This document shows positions 1,269-8,177 of a stretch of DNA of 64,000 bases, in pieces (the stretch's first letter is position 1; the number at the start of each line of letters is the position of its first letter). The notes below the pieces were generated by a model. That model was given only the letters and a program-made list of their open reading frames with translations, had not been told where the DNA came from and searched no databases. This stretch comes from Escherichia phage vB_Eco_F22, in the sequence record OP870143.1; one strand, 5' to 3'. Made by a program: the position numbers and the translations under genes.

Positions 1269-1751
1269 ATGCATCCACTAATCATTGAAATCTTAAGTCT
1301 TTTCTTGGGTTTAGTCACCGACGGACAAACCCATAAATCAAACAATCATTTATCTGGAGAGTACAAAATGTCTATTCAAAAATTCACTTTCGGTCAATCT
1401 AACCCTGCTGCTACCACTGAAACTAAAACTGCTAAGCCTAAAGCTCAGTTCTGGTTGAACATTGGTTATATTGCTAATGAAGGCTCTGAAGATGAGAAGT
1501 TCATCTCTCTGCCTACTGGTATTCCACTGGATACTCAGGAACCACTGCCTACTAATAGCAGCAATGCTGACTTCCGTGCTATGCGTTGTGCACAGAACGA
1601 CTTGCTGGAACAGTTAATCGAATATGCTCAGAACCTGGAACCAGGTGAAGAAGGTATCATTAACCTGCAAGTTCAACTACGTCGTGTGAAAGCAGAGGCT
1701 GCTGACATCCCAGCAGACGAGAATAAATATGCTCGTAAACTGACTTTCTAA
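1269..1751 (+). CDS. Hypothetical early protein (160 aa; alternative start at 1368 with GGAG RBS gives 127 aa)
   Basis: ORF immediately downstream of hairpin motif at 1242; terminator hairpin at 1761..1790. Confidence 0.5.
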
Positions 1752-1760
1752 TCAACAACT

Positions 1761-1790
1761 GGACTCCCTTCGGGGAGTCTTTTATTTTTA
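1761..1790 (+). terminator. Intrinsic terminator
   Basis: Hairpin GGACTCCC-TTCG-GGGAGTC followed by TTTTATTTTT. Confidence 0.7.
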
Positions 1791-1894: not shown

Positions 1895-2191
1895 ATGCGT
1901 ACATTATGTAACCGTTATAACTCACAAAAGTTGATTGATACGTTGCAACCTTGGGGTAGTAAGATGTCACTGAATGCTCGCTGGCAGGTAAGTGTAAAAG
2001 ATGAAAACGGTCACTGCTATGACCACTTCTTTGTAACTAAACCTACTCGTAAACAAATCCGTAAACTTCACAATGTGCAAAAACATTACCTATCACAAAA
2101 ATGCTATGAGTGTGGTAAGAGAATAGAACTAGGTAAAGAATTTACTTTTGATGATCTCAACTATGCTCACACTGACTGCCTGAAAGGATAA
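1895..2191 (+). CDS. Hypothetical Cys/His-rich protein (98 aa), possible zinc-binding
   Basis: ORF with GGAG RBS; HCYDH...CYECGKR...HTDC pattern. Confidence 0.5.
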   Translation: MRTLCNRYNSQKLIDTLQPWGSKMSLNARWQVSVKDENGHCYDHFFVTKPTRKQIRKLHNVQKHYLSQKCYECGKRIELGKEFTFDDLNYAHTDCLKG

Positions 2192-2707: not shown

Positions 2708-2745
2708 AGGAGTCCTCCAATAGGAGGCTCCTATTTTTTATTTTT
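2708..2745 (+). terminator. Intrinsic terminator
   Basis: Imperfect hairpin AAGGAGTCCTCC/AGGAGGCTCCT followed by T-rich run. Confidence 0.55.
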
Positions 2746-2782: not shown

Positions 2783-3097
2783 TTGAATGAAATAGTATGT
2801 ATACTTCCTCACTTAGCTAAAGTAGCTGACAGGAATATACGGGTACATTTACCCTTCCCATTAAGTAATCCATTCACTCGTAATGAAAGAACCACAGTAG
2901 AAGATATAGAGGTAGCTTATGAGGCTTATCTTCGTAATCGTCTTATTAGTGGTGACAAATTAATTACAGCAGAGATGGAAAGGATTGCATCCTTTGTCAC
3001 AGATAGTACTAAGAAACCTGTTGGTTTAATTGGTACTGAATCTGATGTTAACGTTATTCGTAAAATATTAATGGAGGCTTTAGGTGAACAACCTTAG
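2783..3097 (+). CDS. Hypothetical protein (104 aa; TTG start in track)
   Basis: ORF with AGGAG upstream. Confidence 0.45.
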   Translation: MNEIVCILPHLAKVADRNIRVHLPFPLSNPFTRNERTTVEDIEVAYEAYLRNRLISGDKLITAEMERIASFVTDSTKKPVGLIGTESDVNVIRKILMEALGEQP

Positions 3098-3317
3098 TGA
3101 TGTAATAGTAGGTAATGAAATATTCGTTAACCGAAAAGGTTATGCACGAATTAAGCTAAAGAGTACTAACAGAACTATTGTTCGTAAGGTGTACTCTAAA
3201 CCTTTTAGTAATTTCTCTATTGATGAGGTGCGTATTAATAACAAAATGTACCTCATAGATAGTAAAGTATCTGTATGCCATACAGACGGTAAAACCTCAC
3301 TTGAATATGCTTATTAA
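3084..3317 (+). CDS. Hypothetical protein (77 aa; GTG start)
   Basis: ORF overlapping the upstream gene end; same transcriptional orientation. Confidence 0.4.
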   Translation: MNNLSDVIVGNEIFVNRKGYARIKLKSTNRTIVRKVYSKPFSNFSIDEVRINNKMYLIDSKVSVCHTDGKTSLEYAY

Positions 3318-3329
3318 GGAATAAACAAA

Positions 3330-3551
3330 ATGTTGTTCAGCACTAATTATGGTATTTGCCCGATTTGCAATAAAGGAAGAGGAGTTGCTAATCATAAGAA
3401 GTGTAGTCGTATCCTACAGAAACAACGGAACCAGGAAGAATGGGATAAGTTGTTAAATAATCAGCATAAAGAAGAGAACCAACAGATGGCTGTTAAGGCA
3501 TCTACTCAACGTATTCGCCGTATTAACTATATACAGGGGTATCAGAAATGA
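3330..3551 (+). CDS. Hypothetical basic protein with CxxC motif (73 aa)
   Basis: ORF; CPICNKG near N-terminus; 4-nt overlap with the next gene. Confidence 0.45.
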   Translation: MLFSTNYGICPICNKGRGVANHKKCSRILQKQRNQEEWDKLLNNQHKEENQQMAVKASTQRIRRINYIQGYQK

Positions 3552-3904
3552 AACTAATTGTAGCTGGGGGACGTGACTTCACTGACACCAATCGTATGAT
3601 TGCTGAATTACAGAAGCTAGTAGAATCAGGTGAAATAACTGATTCACCTGAACTTGTATGTGGTATGGCTCGAGGAGCAGATATGCTTGCATATAGTCTC
3701 TGGGCTAATAACCGTATGCCTATCCACAACTTCCCAGCAAACTGGAATAAGCATGGAAAGTCTGCTGGTTATAAACGTAATCAGGAAATGGGTGAATTTG
3801 CAGATGCTGCTGTATGTTTCTGGGATGGTAATTCCAAAGGAACCAAGCACATGATTGATATCATGAATAGGCTTAATAAACCTGTATACATTGTGAGGTA
3901 CTGA
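3548..3904 (+). CDS. SLOG/DprA-like Rossmann-fold protein (DUF2493-like, 118 aa)
   Basis: N-terminal VAGGRDF and central GMARGAD motifs resemble the DprA/SLOG GxARGxD signature. Confidence 0.5.
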   Translation: MKLIVAGGRDFTDTNRMIAELQKLVESGEITDSPELVCGMARGADMLAYSLWANNRMPIHNFPANWNKHGKSAGYKRNQEMGEFADAAVCFWDGNSKGTKHMIDIMNRLNKPVYIVRY

Positions 3905-4162
3905 GTGATTATTACATTCCCTGTAACTAAATCATTTAACTATATGGGACAAACTATTGAAGTCCCATTATGGGTTAAATATGTAGCATTATTACCTCGT
4001 CCTCAGAAAAGCAAGAATGCCTCACTAATTGGATTTAGTAGAAAGCCTAAGCTAACCGAAAACTGTATTTGGAAGTCTAGTGGTAGACAAGAGGAAATTG
4101 GTTTTTGTGACTATGTGCTTCAACCAAATACAGTATATCTAACTCTGGAGAAAGTAGAGTGA
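3905..4162 (+). CDS. Hypothetical protein (85 aa; GTG start)
   Basis: ORF tightly packed with neighbours. Confidence 0.4.
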   Translation: MIITFPVTKSFNYMGQTIEVPLWVKYVALLPRPQKSKNASLIGFSRKPKLTENCIWKSSGRQEEIGFCDYVLQPNTVYLTLEKVE

Positions 4163-4479
4163 ATAACATTGTAGTAGTACATGATAATACATTTACTGAT
4201 GTCGATAAGATGATGCGTAATATTGATTACGTATCTCAGACTAGTAAAGCATTCAATGAAGAGTTCACTATTTACTGTGAACCAGAGTCACCACTGGTTC
4301 CTGTATTAAAGGAAGCAGGTCTACCGTTCTCTACAGAGAACTTCCCAGAAGAACCAGAGTACATGATTACATTCATATATGACTTACATGATGGCTCACA
4401 TGCCAGTGAACTAGCCATGAACCAATGGCGTAGTAAACGTCCTGTATTCGCATTTCAGGTACTTAAACCAAAGGATTAA
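4159..4479 (+). CDS. Hypothetical protein (106 aa; GTG start)
   Basis: ORF with 4-nt overlap to the upstream gene. Confidence 0.45.
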   Translation: MNNIVVVHDNTFTDVDKMMRNIDYVSQTSKAFNEEFTIYCEPESPLVPVLKEAGLPFSTENFPEEPEYMITFIYDLHDGSHASELAMNQWRSKRPVFAFQVLKPKD

Positions 4480-4483
4480 TCAA

Positions 4484-4843
4484 ATGAAAGAGATATTCGT
4501 ATTCACTACTAACACATTAGGTCAGCATACCAATGCTGCTGCCAAGTTAGCCTATAAGAAGCATGGTGCTCGTTGGGGTATGGCCTATGGTCATTATGGT
4601 AATAGCTTTGCCATTCCAGTAAGAGATGGCAATGGTAACCGTATCAAAGAGGGTGCTATTTATGGCTTCATTGAAGGTTTTATTGCCTATGCGTCTACTA
4701 ATCCGCAGTGGGATTTCAAAGTCATGAGTAATGACTATCTGGACCCATACCAATTCATTAATGTAACTGGCAATGTACTGTTACCGGAAGCATGGCGTAA
4801 ACACTTAGGTGATGCTTACAACTACTGGGGAACATTCTCATGA
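4484..4843 (+). CDS. Hypothetical protein (119 aa)
   Basis: ORF; no motif recognised. Confidence 0.5.
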   Translation: MKEIFVFTTNTLGQHTNAAAKLAYKKHGARWGMAYGHYGNSFAIPVRDGNGNRIKEGAIYGFIEGFIAYASTNPQWDFKVMSNDYLDPYQFINVTGNVLLPEAWRKHLGDAYNYWGTFS

Positions 4844-5386: not shown

Positions 5387-6205
5387 ATGTACTCATCAAT
5401 AGAACATCAGAAGCAGCTTGAAGTCCTATTCAATAAAAATCAATTACTGCCTCGCATGAGGAAGGAATTCGAGGACTCCAAAGAAATTGACTTTAAGGCA
5501 TTCGCTGCCTATTTAGAAATTGATTATAAGCTGCTCATTGATGCAATGGTGCAGATTGCCCTACATAAACGTGCTGACATCCAGACTATGATTGGCTCTC
5601 TCATGAGTCACTCAGATGATGCTCAGTACATCGCTGACTGTCTATATAAGATGGCAGAGAATGACTGCTTCAACTATGACCCTACCATCGACAAATTCGG
5701 TGTTATCTATGAGATTAGTGAAGATGTTCAGATGGAACTGGAAGCATTCCAGTATCCATTACCTATCGTAAGTGCTCCTAAGCCTGTTCTGTGTAACCGT
5801 GATACAGGTTACTACGAAAGCAGAGGCAGCATCATCCTCAAGAAGAATCATCATGAAATGGACGTCTGCCTTGACCACATCAACCGTATGAACAATCAAC
5901 GTCTCTGTATTAACTGGGACGTTGCCAACTATGTAAAAGACTCTCGTCCTAACATGGATAAACCCAAAGAGGGGGAAACCCGTCAGGACTATGAGAAACG
6001 TGTTAAAGCCTTTGAGAAGTACAGTCGTACTGCTAAGGAAGTAATGGAGTTAGTAACTCAAGAAGGCAATAACTTCTCACTAGCACATAAGTACGATAAG
6101 AGGGGCAGAACCTATGCCTGTGGATACCATATCAATTTTCAAGGGACTTCATATAACAAGGCAGTGATTGAATTTGCTGATAAGGAGCTGGTAAACGATG
6201 ATTAA
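5387..6205 (+). CDS. Phage RNA polymerase II small subunit (N4 gp15-like)
   Basis: 272 aa, immediately upstream of the catalytic subunit; size and position match the N4 RNAPII heterodimer. Confidence 0.5.
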   Translation: MYSSIEHQKQLEVLFNKNQLLPRMRKEFEDSKEIDFKAFAAYLEIDYKLLIDAMVQIALHKRADIQTMIGSLMSHSDDAQYIADCLYKMAENDCFNYDPTIDKFGVIYEISEDVQMELEAFQYPLPIVSAPKPVLCNRDTGYYESRGSIILKKNHHEMDVCLDHINRMNNQRLCINWDVANYVKDSRPNMDKPKEGETRQDYEKRVKAFEKYSRTAKEVMELVTQEGNNFSLAHKYDKRGRTYACGYHINFQGTSYNKAVIEFADKELVNDD

Positions 6206-6643: not shown

Positions 6644-7861
6644 ATGCAACTGTTAACTGCCCGTGAATACCTGAAAGTAGATGTCGCTAACAACTATGGC
6701 TTAGATAAAAAGACATGGGATGAACGTATTAGCTGGTTCGATGAGAACGAAGCTAATCTGCTCAATCTGGTAGATGAAGCTGAAGAATCTGCACTGTTCT
6801 ATGCTGGTGTAAACGCATGGAAAGATATGAAAGCTGGTAAGCCTATTGGTTATGCCGTAGCTCTGGATGCTACATCATCTGGCTTACAGTTACTGGCTTG
6901 CCTGACTGGTGACCGTTCTGCTGCTGAACTGTGTAACGTAGTTAACTACATGGGCAAGAATGGTAAGCCATTACGTCGTGATGCTTATACAGTTATCTAT
7001 CATAAGATGCTGGACATCCTTGGTGAAGCATCTCGTATTAAACGTAGTGACACCAAGCAGGCAGTTATGACTGCATTCTATGGTTCAGAAGCTAAACCTA
7101 AAGAAGTATTCGGTGAAGGTATCCGTCTCAAGACTTTTGAGAATGTAATGGAAACTGTTGCTAGTGGACCTTGGGCATTGAACAAGTTCTTACTGCAATG
7201 TGGTAACCCAGACGCTAACCGTTATGTATGGGTATTGCCTGACAACTTCCATGCTGTCATTAAAGTTATGGTTCCTGAAGTACAGACTGTTAACTTCTTA
7301 GGTAAGCCATTCGACATCACTCGTATGGTCCAAGGTACTGAAGAGAAGACCCGTATGCTCTCTGCTAACATCACCCACTCTATTGATGGGATGGTAGTAC
7401 GTGAGATGCTGCGTCGTTGTAACTTCAACATGAACCAGGTGAACTATATTAAGTCCCTCTGTGAGGGAACCAGTGAATACATGGTTGGCTCTGATGATAA
7501 CTATGAAATGGTTAACACACTGTGGTCTAACTATGAGAAGTCGGGATTCCTGTCTACCCGTATCTTTGATTATCTGGACTCTGAAACAATTGCATTGGTT
7601 GATACAGATGTAATCATGGCTATGCTCAATACCATGCCTAAGAAACCATTCCCTGTAATGACCGTACACGACTGCTTCCGTTGTCATCCTAACTACGGTA
7701 ATGACCTGCGTCGTCAGTACAATCAGATTCTGTCTGACATTGCTAAGAGTGACCTACTGGGCTTCATCCTGTCTCAGGTACTGGGACAAGAGTTCTCTGC
7801 TGGTAAGCTGGATGACAGCCTTTGGCAGGACATCCTTGAAACAGATTATGCATTAAGTTAA
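6644..7861 (+). CDS. Phage RNA polymerase II catalytic subunit (T7-like single-subunit RNAP palm; N4 gp16-like)
   Basis: ALDATSSGLQ (motif A), RSDTKQAVMTAFYGSEAKPKEVFG (motif B, close to T7 RSVTKRSVMTLAYGSKEFG), TVHDCF (motif C); terminator at 7869. Confidence 0.8.
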   Translation: MQLLTAREYLKVDVANNYGLDKKTWDERISWFDENEANLLNLVDEAEESALFYAGVNAWKDMKAGKPIGYAVALDATSSGLQLLACLTGDRSAAELCNVVNYMGKNGKPLRRDAYTVIYHKMLDILGEASRIKRSDTKQAVMTAFYGSEAKPKEVFGEGIRLKTFENVMETVASGPWALNKFLLQCGNPDANRYVWVLPDNFHAVIKVMVPEVQTVNFLGKPFDITRMVQGTEEKTRMLSANITHSIDGMVVREMLRRCNFNMNQVNYIKSLCEGTSEYMVGSDDNYEMVNTLWSNYEKSGFLSTRIFDYLDSETIALVDTDVIMAMLNTMPKKPFPVMTVHDCFRCHPNYGNDLRRQYNQILSDIAKSDLLGFILSQVLGQEFSAGKLDDSLWQDILETDYALS

Positions 7862-7868
7862 TAAACTG

Positions 7869-7903
7869 GCCTCATACCTTCGGGTATGGGGCTTTTATTT
7901 TTT
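7869..7903 (+). terminator. Intrinsic terminator after the RNAPII catalytic subunit gene
   Basis: Hairpin GCCTCATACC-TTCG-GGTATGGGGC followed by TTTTATTTTTT. Confidence 0.75.
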
Positions 7904-7905
7904 GC

Positions 7906-8103
7906 TTGGAGGTAGTCAACATGCCAGACATCTATGATGTTATTACTAAAACCGTACTGATAGTTTTATCTGCTATTGTGATACTCACTATAGTTAACGC
8001 CCACAAATCCAAGTTTGCTTATTGCTACTATGGAGCATACTCTGCCGGATGTTTTGTATTAGCCGGTTGGATAGCTTACTGGATTTACCACATCAACAAC
8101 TAG
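7906..8103 (+). CDS. Small membrane protein (65 aa, two hydrophobic helices)
   Basis: ORF between two terminators. Confidence 0.4.
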   Translation: MEVVNMPDIYDVITKTVLIVLSAIVILTIVNAHKSKFAYCYYGAYSAGCFVLAGWIAYWIYHINN

Positions 8104-8130
8104 CCACCCTCAAGGGTGGCTTTCTTTTTT
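8103..8130 (+). terminator. Intrinsic terminator
   Basis: Hairpin GCCACCC-TCAA-GGGTGGC followed by TTTCTTTTTT. Confidence 0.7.
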
Positions 8131-8177
8131 ATCAGCCTTCATAATGATTAGGCATATTTACTCAAGAGGATACATAC

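What the first reader, a model, noticed from the sequence alone, without database searches (positions are those of the whole stretch)
3548..3904. Standalone SLOG/DprA-like Rossmann protein in the early gene block
The 118-aa protein carries VAGGRDF and GMARGAD motifs typical of SLOG/DprA-like nucleotide-binding domains. Small standalone SLOG proteins in phage early regions are largely uncharacterised and could bind host signalling nucleotides or DNA.
Basis: inference. Interest (0 to 1): 0.5.

Follow-up and report, generated by a model that had tools for sequence, protein, structure and literature searches.

The report
Small phage SLOG (YAcAr/DUF2493) protein
This is a real early gene of an N4-like coliphage encoding a minimal nucleotide-binding protein of a large, already catalogued family (YAcAr/DUF2493, SLOG superfamily); the family's biochemical job is still untested, but it is probably linked to ADP-ribose or nucleotide processing against host defences.

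Summary
Window 3548..3904 (+) is a 118-aa ORF carrying both quoted motifs. The window is Escherichia phage E20 (Gamaleyavirus, N4-like), where this gene is E20_12, "hypothetical protein".

The SLOG reading is supported:
- It hits Pfam PF10686 YAcAr (ex-DUF2493) at 45.9 bits against a cutoff of 28.2.
- It is not a DprA or LOG orthologue, and it has no GTPase motifs despite the PHROG label "GTP-binding domain".

The family is very large: 15,960 50%-identity clusters and 1,151 of 50,697 phage records. N4-like orthologues are already annotated as DUF2493, and viral SLOGs were surveyed in 2021–22, so the identification is not new.

Function is inferred, not shown:
- Close relatives are fused to DUF4326, NADAR, Macro and DUF488.
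- The E20 early operon also carries a DUF4326-like gene and a gene with a macrodomain-like predicted fold.
- A 34%-identical homologue (ΦDruSM1 ORF83) is reported in a preprint to protect against AVAST type III.

The best guess is a ribose-phosphate or ADP-ribose-derivative binder or N-glycosidase used in early counter-defence. Rivals are a DprA-like ssDNA role, a signal sponge and plain nucleotide metabolism.

The parts
3548..3904 (+). Gene for the 118-aa single-domain YAcAr (PF10686, ex-DUF2493) SLOG protein. It corresponds to E20_12 of Escherichia phage E20.
3535..3539 (+). Shine-Dalgarno-like AGGGG, 8 nt before the ATG. The ATG overlaps the TGA of the upstream ORF (ATGA, 3548-3551), which suggests translational coupling.
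   Evidence: Read directly from the sequence. Coupling is inferred.
3557..3580 (+). Motif 1, aa 4-11 IVAGGRDF: strand 1 plus the glycine-rich loop with R9. It has the same G-(G/S)-R pattern as DprA.
   Evidence: G7 is 82/82 and R9 is 81/82 in alignment A2. The profile aligns to S. pneumoniae DprA 'VAVVGSR' at sub-threshold E 0.059.
3662..3682 (+). Motif 2, aa 39-45 GMARGAD: the loop and helix start after strand 2. This is the GxAxGxD signature shared with DprA and the YpsA clade.
   Evidence: G39 81/82, A41 79/82, G43 81/82, D45 81/82. It aligns to the DprA 'SGLAKGID' segment.
3731..3745 (+). Motif 3, aa 62-66 FPANW, located after strand 3. W66 is invariant.
   Evidence: A64 80/82 and W66 82/82. 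Secondary structure.
3755..3790 (+). Motif 4, aa 70-81 GKSAGYKRNQEM in helix 3. R77-N78 are equivalent to R89-N90 of ΦDruSM1 ORF83 / CAjan gp82, and (per the EVADES preprint) to R115-K116 of the LOG enzyme Cg1261.
   Evidence: A73 and R77 82/82, G74 and N78 81/82, M81 80/82. Alignment with CAjan gp82. Residue mapping as stated in 10.1101/2025.06.06.658234.
3818..3856 (+). Motif 5, aa 91-103 FWDGNSKGTKHMI: strand 4 plus a loop. It is the positional counterpart of the LOG PGGxGTxxE motif, with His101 where LOG has the catalytic Glu.
   Evidence: W92 80/82, G94 77/82, S96 81/82, G98 81/82, T99 75/82, M102 74/82. Position 101 is H 63, N 9, D 3, S 3. The correspondence to LOG is inferred through ORF83 T112/D114.
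2783..3097 (+). Context gene in the same operon: 104-aa homologue of N4 gp9, a degenerate DUF4326-like protein. It keeps PLxNPF and Y..yL but lacks the CxC..CHG motif. It is a possible functional partner.
   Evidence: Pfam DUF4326 E 0.033, below cutoff. BLASTP E 2e-6 to the bona fide DUF4326 protein gp10 of phage 24-32N. Alignment. 74% identical to N4 gp9.
4484..4843 (+). Context gene in the same operon: 119-aa homologue of N4 gp14 with a macrodomain-like predicted fold. It is a possible functional partner, but the E20 copy has lost several residues that are near-invariant in its family.
2709..2745 (+). Terminator-like hairpin plus T-run (GGAGTCCTCC-AATA-GGAGGCTCC-TATTTTTTATTTTT). It closes the preceding early unit, and the unit containing the SLOG gene starts downstream of it.
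   Evidence: The next + strand terminator-like sites are at 7868-7903 and 8102-8131.

Best explanation
**Shown**
- Window 3548..3904 is a genuine, conserved protein-coding gene in the early, RNAPII-containing transcription unit of an N4-like coliphage (E20, Gamaleyavirus).
- It encodes a minimal single-domain member of the YAcAr (PF10686, ex-DUF2493) family of the SLOG superfamily.
- The predicted fold is a five-stranded Rossmann-like sandwich. The conserved polar and glycine residues sit in the loops after strands 1-4 (AGGRD, GxAxGAD, PAxW, WDGxSxGTxH) and in helix 3 (R77-N78).
- The gene belongs to an accessory block (3084..4162) that is absent from the first 10 kb of phage N4.

**Inferred**
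- These residues form one pocket that holds a nucleotide-type ligand through its ribose-5-phosphate. The ligand would be AMP or an ADP-ribose-derived molecule, either free or attached to nucleic acid.
- The protein either cleaves the ligand's N-glycosidic bond (LOG-like chemistry, with His101 in place of the LOG Glu) or presents it to partner enzymes.
- It would act together with, or in the same pathway as, DUF4326 (rhodanese/phosphatase-like), Macro and NADAR domains. Made early in infection, it would remove an ADP-ribose-derived host defence signal or adduct, or otherwise blunt a defence such as Avs type III.
For: **Identity**
- Pfam YAcAr above the cutoff, full-length phrog_289 hit, AF2 pLDDT 96.7.
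- Strong motif conservation.

**Link to ADP-ribose processing**
- All 34 longer close relatives (29-44% identical to one another; 36-54% to the query) carry YAcAr. Of these, 9 add DUF4326, 4 NADAR, 3 Macro and up to 3 DUF488-type domains.
- P0122, a SLOG-DUF4326 fusion, is 54% identical to the query.
- In N4-like genomes a bona fide DUF4326 gene lies 0.5-0.8 kb downstream of the SLOG gene in phage 24-32N (E 9.5e-23) and contig L018.
- E20 itself has a DUF4326-like gene upstream and a gene with a macrodomain-like fold downstream, in the same terminator-free unit.
- Phage SU10 has a Macro gene two genes upstream of its homologue.
- This matches the published prediction for viral YpsA-clade SLOGs (PMC9503650 and PMC7824862).

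**Counter-defence**
- CAjan gp82 is PF10686 at E 2e-18 and 34% identical to the query. It carries exactly the R89/N90/T112/D114 residues that the EVADES preprint gives for ΦDruSM1 ORF83.
- Deletion of ORF83 lowered plating on AVAST type III cells (10.1101/2024.04.14.589459).
- The gene has an accessory distribution: absent from the first 10 kb of N4, present in Gamaleyaviruses.
Against: - No biochemical data exist for any YAcAr protein, so the ligand, catalysis and target are all inferred.
- E20 lacks a bona fide DUF4326, and its macro-like and DUF4326-like neighbours look degenerate, so the 'module' may not function as one here.
- In 6 of 11 non-N4 phages inspected, the homologue sits beside replication or recombination genes (helicase, primase, polymerase, Cas4/RecB exonuclease) rather than ADP-ribose enzymes (also 35). 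On plasmids it sits beside toprim and Sno-helicase genes or PolIII alpha.
- The LOG catalytic Glu is not conserved; the position is His in 63/82 sequences.
- The ORF83 phenotype comes from one preprint, in a 34%-identical homologue. The text I read does not describe its complementation explicitly, and the adjacent ORF84 deletion had the stronger effect, so a polar effect is possible.
- PADLOC and NCBIfam give nothing.
Confidence: 0.45

Rival explanations
1. DprA-like ssDNA-binding accessory factor. The mini-SLOG would bind single-stranded DNA through the G-(G/S)-R and GxAxGxD loops, as DprA does, and help phage replication, recombination or protection of ssDNA. No ADP-ribose chemistry would be involved.
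For: - It shares DprA's two N-terminal motifs: the profile aligns to S. pneumoniae DprA 'VAVVGSR...SGLAKGID' at E 0.059.
- 8 of 34 relatives hit PF02481 weakly.
- Homologues lie next to helicase, primase, polymerase and Cas4/RecB exonuclease genes in phages PBC4, H188, Pumbaa, JustaPhage and Iggy.
- A homologous domain is fused to the SF1B helicase HelB of phage ICP1.
- On plasmids it sits beside toprim, Sno-helicase or PolIII alpha genes.
- An anti-Avs3 phenotype shared with a DNA ligase would fit a role in tolerating DNA damage.
Against: - The query gives no PF02481 hit at E<=1.
- It has only 118 aa, without DprA's N-terminal SAM-like and C-terminal domains.
- The C-terminal family motifs (W66, R77-N78, WDGxSxGTxH) are not DprA features.
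- Family pI is not consistently basic: median 7.9, range 4.9-9.9.
- EVADES reports that ORF83 lacks DprA dimerisation and RecA-binding residues, and AF3 gives ipTM 0.18 with RecA.
- In N4-like phages the gene is in the early host-takeover block, not the replication module.
- The Macro, NADAR and DUF4326 fusions are left unexplained.
Confidence: 0.2
2. Free-nucleotide phosphoribohydrolase. This would be a LOG-like enzyme that cleaves AMP or another (d)NMP into base plus ribose-5-phosphate. It would serve phage nucleotide metabolism or pool sanitation rather than immune evasion.
For: - EVADES predicts AMP binding for the homologue ORF83 (AF3 ipTM 0.9), with R89/T112 matching Cg1261 R115/T175. 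The equivalents R77/T99 are 82/82 and 75/82 conserved here.
- Some homologues neighbour nucleotide-metabolism genes: nucleoside deoxyribosyltransferase in Pumbaa, thymidylate synthase and adenylate kinase in PBC4, thymidine kinase in P1048.
Against: - There is no PF03641 hit.
- The PGGxGTxxE Glu is replaced (His 63, Asn 9, Asp 3, Ser 3 of 82), and the GGGxxGLM motif is replaced by GxAxGAD.
- This idea does not explain the recurrent fusions to Macro, NADAR and DUF4326 or the accessory, early-gene location.
Confidence: 0.15
3. Non-catalytic sponge or sensor. The protein would simply sequester a cyclic ADP-ribose-type immune signal, as the SLOG domain of ThsA binds 3'cADPR. It would act as a Tad-like anti-Thoeris decoy, or as a sensor that regulates a partner.
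For: - The protein is small, standalone and early-expressed, as known sponges are.
- Iyer et al. [quoted passage not shown]
Against: - The literature search for SLOG + phage + anti-Thoeris found no such protein described.
- The family is widespread in replication modules, on plasmids and in fusions to enzymes, which does not suit a dedicated sponge.
- Many conserved polar residues (D10, D45, R77, N78, D93, S96, T99, H101) are compatible with catalysis.
- ThsA ligand-contact residues were not compared here.
Confidence: 0.1
4. A GTP-binding or chromosome-segregation protein, as many database records label it (PHROG 289 'GTP-binding domain'; 'chromosome segregation protein').
For: Only the propagated labels in PHROGs and GenBank records support this.
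Against: - There is no Walker A (GxxxxGK[ST]) and no NKxD motif.
- The fold matches are SLOG proteins, not P-loop GTPases.
- The Pfam hit is YAcAr only.
Confidence: 0.02

Closest known systems
Pfam PF10686 YAcAr ('YspA, cpYpsA-related SLOG family', formerly DUF2493); PHROG 289
   Same: - Significant HMM match (45.9 bits against a cutoff of 28.2) and a full-length PHROG match.
- Typical size and all family motifs are present.
- Orthologues in N4-like phages are already labelled DUF2493, DprA-like or YAcAr.
   Different: Nothing structural differs; it is an ordinary member. The Pfam model covers only aa 1-69. The conserved C-terminal half (FPAxW, GxxAGxxRN, FWDGxSxGTxHM) is captured only by the PHROG profile.
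ΦDruSM1 ORF83 / CAjan gp82 (Queuovirinae), reported anti-AVAST type III protein
   Same: - Same Pfam family: CAjan gp82 hits PF10686 at E 2e-18.
- 34% identity to the query, with the same R-N and G-T motif positions (R77/N78/T99 against R89/N90/T112).
- Also a small standalone phage protein.
   Different: - The Queuovirinae protein has a 15-residue insertion after the PAxW motif.
- It has a LOG-like 'FPGGAGT' loop instead of 'FWDGNSKGT', and Asp114 where E20 has His101.
- It comes from a different phage family and genomic position.
- No phenotype is known for the E20 gene.
DprA/Smf (PF02481), recombination mediator
   Different: - No PF02481 hit for the query.
- None of DprA's flanking domains are present.
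- The C-terminal motifs differ.
- No evidence of RecA or ssDNA interaction.
ShosA of the Shosta defence system (PDB 8zva) and YpsA (PDB 2nx2)
   Different: - Sequence identity is only 19% and 12%.
- The PADLOC models give no hit at E<=1.
- ShosA is 308 aa and part of a two-gene host defence system.
- YpsA is a Firmicute cell-division-related protein.
LOG cytokinin riboside 5'-monophosphate phosphoribohydrolases (PF03641) and the ThsA SLOG sensor domain
   Different: - The LOG PGGxGTxxE Glu and the GGGxxGLM motif are not conserved.
- ThsA's SLOG is fused to a SIR2 effector and is a non-catalytic 3'cADPR receptor, whereas this protein stands alone.

Membership tests
SLOG superfamily | Three-layer alpha/beta Rossmann-like fold with a central parallel 5-stranded sheet | tested here: met
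   [not shown]
SLOG superfamily | [quoted passage not shown] | tested here: met
   A6-G7-G8-R9 follow strand 1, G39xAxG43xD45 follow strand 2, and W92-D-G-x-S-x-G-T99 follow strand 4. All are >=90% conserved except G8, which is G or S.
YAcAr, Pfam PF10686 (ex-DUF2493) | Whole-protein score at or above Pfam's gathering threshold | tested here: met
   45.9 bits against 28.2, E 4.9e-12, profile positions 1-66 of 66.
DprA/Smf, Pfam PF02481 | Match to the DNA_processg_A model | tested here: not met
   No PF02481 hit at E<=1 for the query. Only 8 of 34 relatives hit it weakly, best E 7.7e-6. The profile against PDB DprA chains gives E 0.059-1.5.
DprA/Smf, Pfam PF02481 | Multi-domain architecture (Rossmann core plus N-terminal SAM-like and/or C-terminal DNA-binding domain), dimerisation and RecA interaction | tested here: not met
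   The protein is 118 aa and the single SLOG core fills the whole length. RecA interaction was not testable here. EVADES reports it absent for the homologue ORF83.
LOG phosphoribohydrolases, Pfam PF03641 | PGGxGTxxE motif with the catalytic Glu, and the GGGxxGLM motif | tested here: not met
   The equivalent segment is WDGNSKGTKHM. The Glu position is His in 63, Asn in 9, Asp in 3 and Ser in 3 of 82 sequences. The second motif is replaced by GMARGAD. There is no Pfam LOG hit.
ThsA-type SLOG sensor (Thoeris) | SLOG domain fused to an effector (SIR2 or TM) that binds 3'cADPR | tested here: not met
   [not shown]
P-loop GTPase (the 'GTP-binding domain' label of PHROG 289) | Walker A GxxxxGK[ST] and NKxD motifs; P-loop NTPase fold | tested here: not met
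   Neither motif is present. Fold matches are SLOG proteins, not P-loop NTPases.
Anti-defence protein, ORF83-type anti-AVAST III | Homology to ΦDruSM1 ORF83 | tested here: met
   The test used the Queuovirinae orthologue CAjan gp82, which carries the exact residues R89/N90/T112/D114 quoted for ORF83. Both proteins are PF10686. Identity is 34% overall, and BLASTP gives E 6e-9 over the N-terminal 67 aa. The ORF83 sequence itself was not available.
Anti-defence protein, ORF83-type anti-AVAST III | Protects the phage against Avs type III (loss of the gene lowers EOP) | not testable with these tools
   Needs an E20 deletion mutant and plating on Avs3-expressing E. coli. The only data are for ΦDruSM1, in a preprint.

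The most novel reading that the evidence does not exclude
In N4-like phages the early operon would carry a three-part counter-defence module: a YAcAr SLOG, a DUF4326 or DUF4326-like protein, and a small DarG-like macrodomain protein (N4 gp14 family). The same three domains are found fused to one another elsewhere. The module would dismantle an ADP-ribose-derived host weapon, for example DarT-type ADP-ribosylation of phage DNA or a TIR-derived signal. The SLOG would act as a new His-dependent N-glycosidase. This would give the first biochemical activity for the roughly 16,000-cluster YAcAr family and a mechanism for the reported anti-Avs3 effect.
Probability: 0.2. Interest if true: 0.65.

Novelty: already known. 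Interest (0 to 1): 0.3.

Why it matters
The family is very common. It occurs in about 2% of sequenced phage genomes, on many conjugative plasmids, and in roughly 16,000 clusters at 50% identity. It is repeatedly fused to enzymes that process ADP-ribose, yet no member has a demonstrated activity.

E20 and its N4-like relatives infect E. coli and are easy to manipulate. This 118-aa protein is therefore a convenient minimal model for testing the published prediction that viral SLOG domains destroy or sense ADP-ribose-derived immune signals. It could also be used to check the single reported anti-Avs phenotype.

As a discovery in this window it is ordinary: a correct domain call on a gene whose relatives are already annotated that way.

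Tried and rejected
- **NCBIfam and PADLOC.** No hits.
- **The search for related loci.** The neighbour census therefore rests on 11 hand-picked phage records and 2 plasmids, not on a systematic sample.
- **Source of the ORF83 result.** I could not fetch Gao et al. 2022, and Silas et al. does not mention ORF83. The source turned out to be Ojima et al. (bioRxiv 10.1101/2024.04.14.589459).
- **Rhodanese-phosphatase paper on DUF4326 and DUF488.** It was not held under the DOI I recalled.
- **'N4-like / N4-ART' family in PMC9503650.** This family is probably named after something other than phage N4 and was not used as evidence.
- **Flanking small ORFs 3330..3551 and 3905..4162.** They do not travel with the SLOG gene outside N4-like phages.
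- **Isoelectric point as a test for nucleic-acid binding.** It was uninformative: query 8.6, family range 4.9-9.9.
Full report

Yes. The ORF listing and the raw sequence show an ATG..TGA ORF of 118 aa at 3548..3904 on the + strand. Its sequence is MKLIVAGGRDFTDTNRMIAELQKLVESGEITDSPELVCGMARGADMLAYSLWANNRMPIHNFPANWNKHGKSAGYKRNQEMGEFADAAVCFWDGNSKGTKHMIDIMNRLNKPVYIVRY. Both quoted motifs are present: VAGGRDF at aa 5-11 and GMARGAD at aa 39-45.

An AGGGG Shine-Dalgarno-like element lies 8 nt upstream. The ATG overlaps the stop of the upstream ORF (ATGA), and the next ORF starts one base after the stop. This tight packing is typical of a phage operon.

The window is Escherichia phage E20 (OP745616.1; Schitoviridae, Enquatrovirinae, Gamaleyavirus). 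Identity is 100% over the 3 kb tested, and window coordinate = record coordinate + 292. The ORF is E20_12, annotated "hypothetical protein".

**2. What is it?**

*Family assignment*
- Pfam gives a single hit, PF10686 "YAcAr: YspA, cpYpsA-related SLOG family" (the former DUF2493). The score is 45.9 bits against a gathering score of 28.2, at E 4.9e-12. The hit covers aa 1-69 and the whole 66-position model.
- PHROGs gives a full-length hit to phrog_289, labelled "GTP-binding domain", at E 2e-32.
- NCBIfam and PADLOC give nothing.

*Family size and conservation*
- There are 3,836 homologues among the 90%-identity clusters and 15,960 50%-identity cluster representatives at E<=1e-3.
- tblastn matches 1,151 of 50,697 phage records, from Mycobacterium, Vibrio, Klebsiella, Escherichia, Erwinia, Campylobacter, Bacillus and other hosts.
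- It also matches 275 plasmids, mostly rhizobial and 148 of them conjugative.
- In an 82-sequence alignment of standalone relatives (38-88% identical to the query), G7, W66, A73 and R77 are invariant. A6, R9, G39, A41, G43, D45, A64, G70, G74, N78, M81, W92, G94, S96, G98, T99 and M102 are >=90% conserved.
- These residues define five motifs: hhAG(G/S)RDF, SGxAxGAD, FPAxW, GxxAGxxRNxxM and FWDGxSxGTxHMI.

*Structure*
- AlphaFold2 run on that alignment gives a very confident model: pLDDT 96.7, pTM 0.89. The order of elements is b1-a1-b2-a2-b3-a3-b4-a4-b5.
- Foldseek against the PDB ranks ShosA (8zva, E 2.5e-5), H. pylori DprA (4ljk, 4.4e-4) and the BcThsA SLOG domain with 3'cADPR (7uxs, 7.3e-4) first.
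- The protein is therefore a minimal, single-domain SLOG.

*What it is not*
- **Not a DprA orthologue.** There is no PF02481 hit and no flanking domains. It shares only the G-S-R and SGxAxGxD motifs.
- **Not a LOG enzyme.** There is no PF03641 hit. The PGGxGTxxE Glu position is His in 63/82 sequences, and GGGxxGLM is replaced by GxAxGAD.
- **Not a GTPase.** It has no Walker A or NKxD motif. The common database labels "GTP-binding domain" and "chromosome segregation protein" therefore have no support.

**3. Genomic setting**

*Position in the early region*
- The gene lies downstream of the N4 gp2 homologue (window 1368..1751, 71% identical to N4 gp2).
- It lies upstream of the two RNAPII-subunit genes, 5387..6205 and 6644..7861.
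- Terminator-like hairpins on the + strand occur at 1761-1790, 2709-2745, 7868-7903 and 8102-8131. None lies between about 2750 and 7868. Sigma-70-like sites are depleted: 11 found against 24.4 expected.
- In phage N4, gp15/gp16 (RNAPII) are early products; this rests on established knowledge rather than on a tool result. I therefore infer, without showing it, that the SLOG gene is co-transcribed with them as an early gene.

*Accessory distribution*
- The first 10 kb of N4 have homologues of the flanking genes: gp9 is 74% identical to window 2783..3097, gp11 is 71% to 4159..4479, and gp14 is 47% to 4484..4843.
- N4 has no counterpart of 3084..4162, the block that contains orf3084, orf3330, the SLOG gene and orf3905.

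*Two neighbours in the same unit are informative*
- **Window 2783..3097 (N4 gp9 family).** It gives a sub-threshold DUF4326 hit (E 0.033). It aligns with the bona fide DUF4326 protein gp10 of phage 24-32N (E 2e-6) on the PLxNPF and Y..wL motifs. It lacks the HHG..YIGRG and CxC..CHG motifs, so it looks like a degenerate relative.
- **Bona fide DUF4326 genes in relatives.** They lie 0.5-0.8 kb downstream of the SLOG gene in 24-32N (E 9.5e-23) and in metagenomic N4-like contig L018. N4 gp12 is also DUF4326. They are absent in E20 and in L017.
- **The E20 macro-like copy looks degenerate.** It deviates from its family's near-invariant G8, S9, G18 and T46, and it lacks the GCGLAG loop.

**4. Evidence on function from relatives**

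*Domain fusions*
- All 34 longer proteins among the 150 best cluster representatives carry YAcAr. Nine add DUF4326, four NADAR, three Macro and up to three DUF488-type domains.
- One SLOG-DUF4326 fusion, P0122, is 54% identical to the E20 protein.
- These partners are ADP-ribose-processing or rhodanese/phosphatase-like domains.
- This reproduces what Iyer, Burroughs and Aravind described for viral YpsA-clade SLOG domains (PMC9503650, PMC7824862). They predict that these domains degrade or sense cADPR-like signals, state that they "remain experimentally uncharacterized", and note fusions to SF1 helicases, HNH and other nucleic-acid enzymes.

*Gene neighbours outside N4-like phages*
- The depositors' annotations often put the homologue in replication or recombination modules:
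  - PBC4: primase and helicase upstream, RecB exonuclease downstream.
  - H188: between a Cas4 exonuclease and a helicase.
  - Pumbaa: DnaB helicase, nucleoside deoxyribosyltransferase, endonuclease VII and primase nearby.
  - JustaPhage: immediately after a DNA polymerase gene.
  - Iggy: between PolIII beta and DNA polymerase, near DpdA.
  - SU10: Macro two genes upstream, ATPase and 5'-3' exonuclease downstream.
- ICP1 HelB is an SF1B helicase with a C-terminal DUF2493 domain.
- On a rhizobial conjugative plasmid, a 313-aa DUF2493 protein follows Sno-like helicase and toprim genes. On a Geobacillus plasmid the gene follows PolIII alpha.
- Five other phages show only hypothetical neighbours, or in ZX6 the phage RNA polymerase.

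*An experimental lead*
- Ojima et al. (bioRxiv 10.1101/2024.04.14.589459) deleted 73 ORFs of the Queuovirinae phage ΦDruSM1. Deletions of ORF55 (DNA ligase), ORF72, ORF83 ("Smf/DprA") and ORF84 lowered plating on AVAST type III cells. They list ORF83 as an anti-AVAST III gene.
- The EVADES preprint (10.1101/2025.06.06.658234) models ORF83 with AMP and names R89, N90, T112 and D114 as the pocket. It maps them to Cg1261 (LOG) R115, K116, T175 and E178. It finds no DprA-type RecA interface, and it notes amoeba-virus homologues fused to DUF4326.
- I could not obtain the ORF83 sequence. However, gp82 of the related Queuovirinae phage CAjan has exactly R89, N90, T112 and D114, hits PF10686 at E 2e-18, and is 34% identical to the E20 protein.
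- So ORF83 belongs to the same family. The E20 equivalents are R77, N78, T99 and His101.
- Caveats: this is one preprint and a distant homologue. The text I read does not describe ORF83 complementation explicitly. The neighbouring ORF84 deletion had the larger effect, and the authors themselves mention polar effects.

**5. How it most likely works**

*Shown*
- A conserved minimal SLOG fold, with invariant Gly/Arg/Asp/Trp/Asn/Ser/Thr residues in the loops after strands 1-4 and in helix 3.
- An accessory distribution, in an early-type operon.
- Recurrent fusion or adjacency to DUF4326, Macro and NADAR.

*Inferred*
- These residues form one pocket for a ribose-5-phosphate-containing ligand, either AMP or an ADP-ribose derivative, free or attached to nucleic acid.
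- The protein either hydrolyses the N-glycosidic bond, with His101 or D93 substituting for the LOG Glu, or binds the ligand for partner enzymes.
- The effect would be removal of a host defence signal or adduct early in infection.
- I put this at about 0.45.

*Rivals*
- A DprA-like ssDNA or replication accessory role (0.2). It is favoured by the replication-module neighbours, the helicase fusions and the shared DprA motifs.
- A plain (d)NMP phosphoribohydrolase for nucleotide metabolism (0.15).
- A non-catalytic cADPR-type sponge or sensor (0.1).
- A GTP-binding protein (0.02, effectively refuted).

A reading that reconciles the two lines of context is repair of ADP-ribosylated DNA at replication forks. 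This is attractive but untested.

**6. Comparison with what is known, and novelty**

- The protein is an ordinary member of PF10686.
- Orthologues in N4-like phages are already annotated as:
  - "DNA processing protein DprA";
  - "YspA cpYpsA-related SLOG family protein".
- The class of viral standalone SLOGs, their Macro/NADAR/DUF4326 associations and their early-gene location were described in 2021-22.
- What remains open is the biochemistry of the whole family. E20 offers a small, tractable example for that.
- Two modest additions come from this analysis. First, N4-like early operons combine the SLOG gene with a DUF4326 or DUF4326-like gene and a small gene with a macrodomain-like fold (the N4 gp14 family). 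Second, the reported anti-Avs3 protein ORF83 is a YAcAr-family member.

**7. Verdict**

- Observation: confirmed.
- Interpretation: supported.
- Novelty: already known.
- Interest: 0.3.
- The most novel reading not excluded is a three-part ADP-ribose-dismantling counter-defence module with a His-dependent SLOG N-glycosidase. I give it about 0.2 probability, and it would merit about 0.65 interest if true.

Noticed in passing
[not shown]
   Followed up: partly
window 2783..3097 (+): This 104-aa protein with a TTG start is 74% identical to N4 gp9. It is a sub-threshold DUF4326 relative that keeps PLxNPF but lacks the Cys/His motif (CxC..CHG). Relatives (N4 gp12, 24-32N gp10, contig L018) carry an additional bona fide DUF4326 gene that E20 lacks.
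   Followed up: partly
window 3084..4162 (+): The four-gene block (orf3084, orf3330, SLOG, orf3905) has no counterpart in the first 10 kb of phage N4, although the genes on either side do. This marks a variable accessory island inside the N4-like early region. orf3330 (73 aa) has a CPICNK...C zinc-finger-like start.
   Followed up: partly
window 1761-1790, 2709-2745, 7868-7903, 8102-8131 (+): Strong terminator-like hairpins with T-runs divide the left end into units. Sigma-70-like promoter matches are depleted (11 found against 24.4 expected), as expected for N4-type early genes transcribed by the virion RNA polymerase. I did not locate the N4-type hairpin promoters.
   Followed up: partly
window 1368..1751 (+) = OP745616.1 1076..1459 (E20_04): This gene is annotated 'integrase' in the GenBank record, but it is 71% identical to N4 gp2 (E 3e-69). 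Relatives carry Pfam Phage_N4_Gp2 at this position, so this is a likely misannotation.
   Followed up: yes
window 3548..3904, aa 54-102: The segment 'FPAxWxxxGxxAGYxR' weakly resembles the LasR autoinducer-binding domain ('YPAAWREHYDRAGYAR'), with E 0.05-1.5 against PDB sequences. I judge this to be chance, since the folds differ.
   Followed up: partly
window 1895..2191 (+): This 98-aa protein has an N-terminal DUF7279 (E 3.4e-9) and a C-terminal CxxC zinc-ribbon-like tail with sub-threshold hits to DUF2175 and the Cas12f TNB domain. DUF7279 recurs at this position in N4-like contigs.
   Followed up: no
L007 (Escherichia phage CAjan) 35867..37160: The CAjan YAcAr gene gp82 is followed by two genes without Pfam hits, gp83 (156 aa) and gp84 (141 aa). 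In ΦDruSM1 the ORF next to the SLOG gene (ORF84) gave the strongest anti-AVAST III and anti-Qat deletion phenotype, so the phenotype attributed to the SLOG gene may be partly polar.
   Followed up: no
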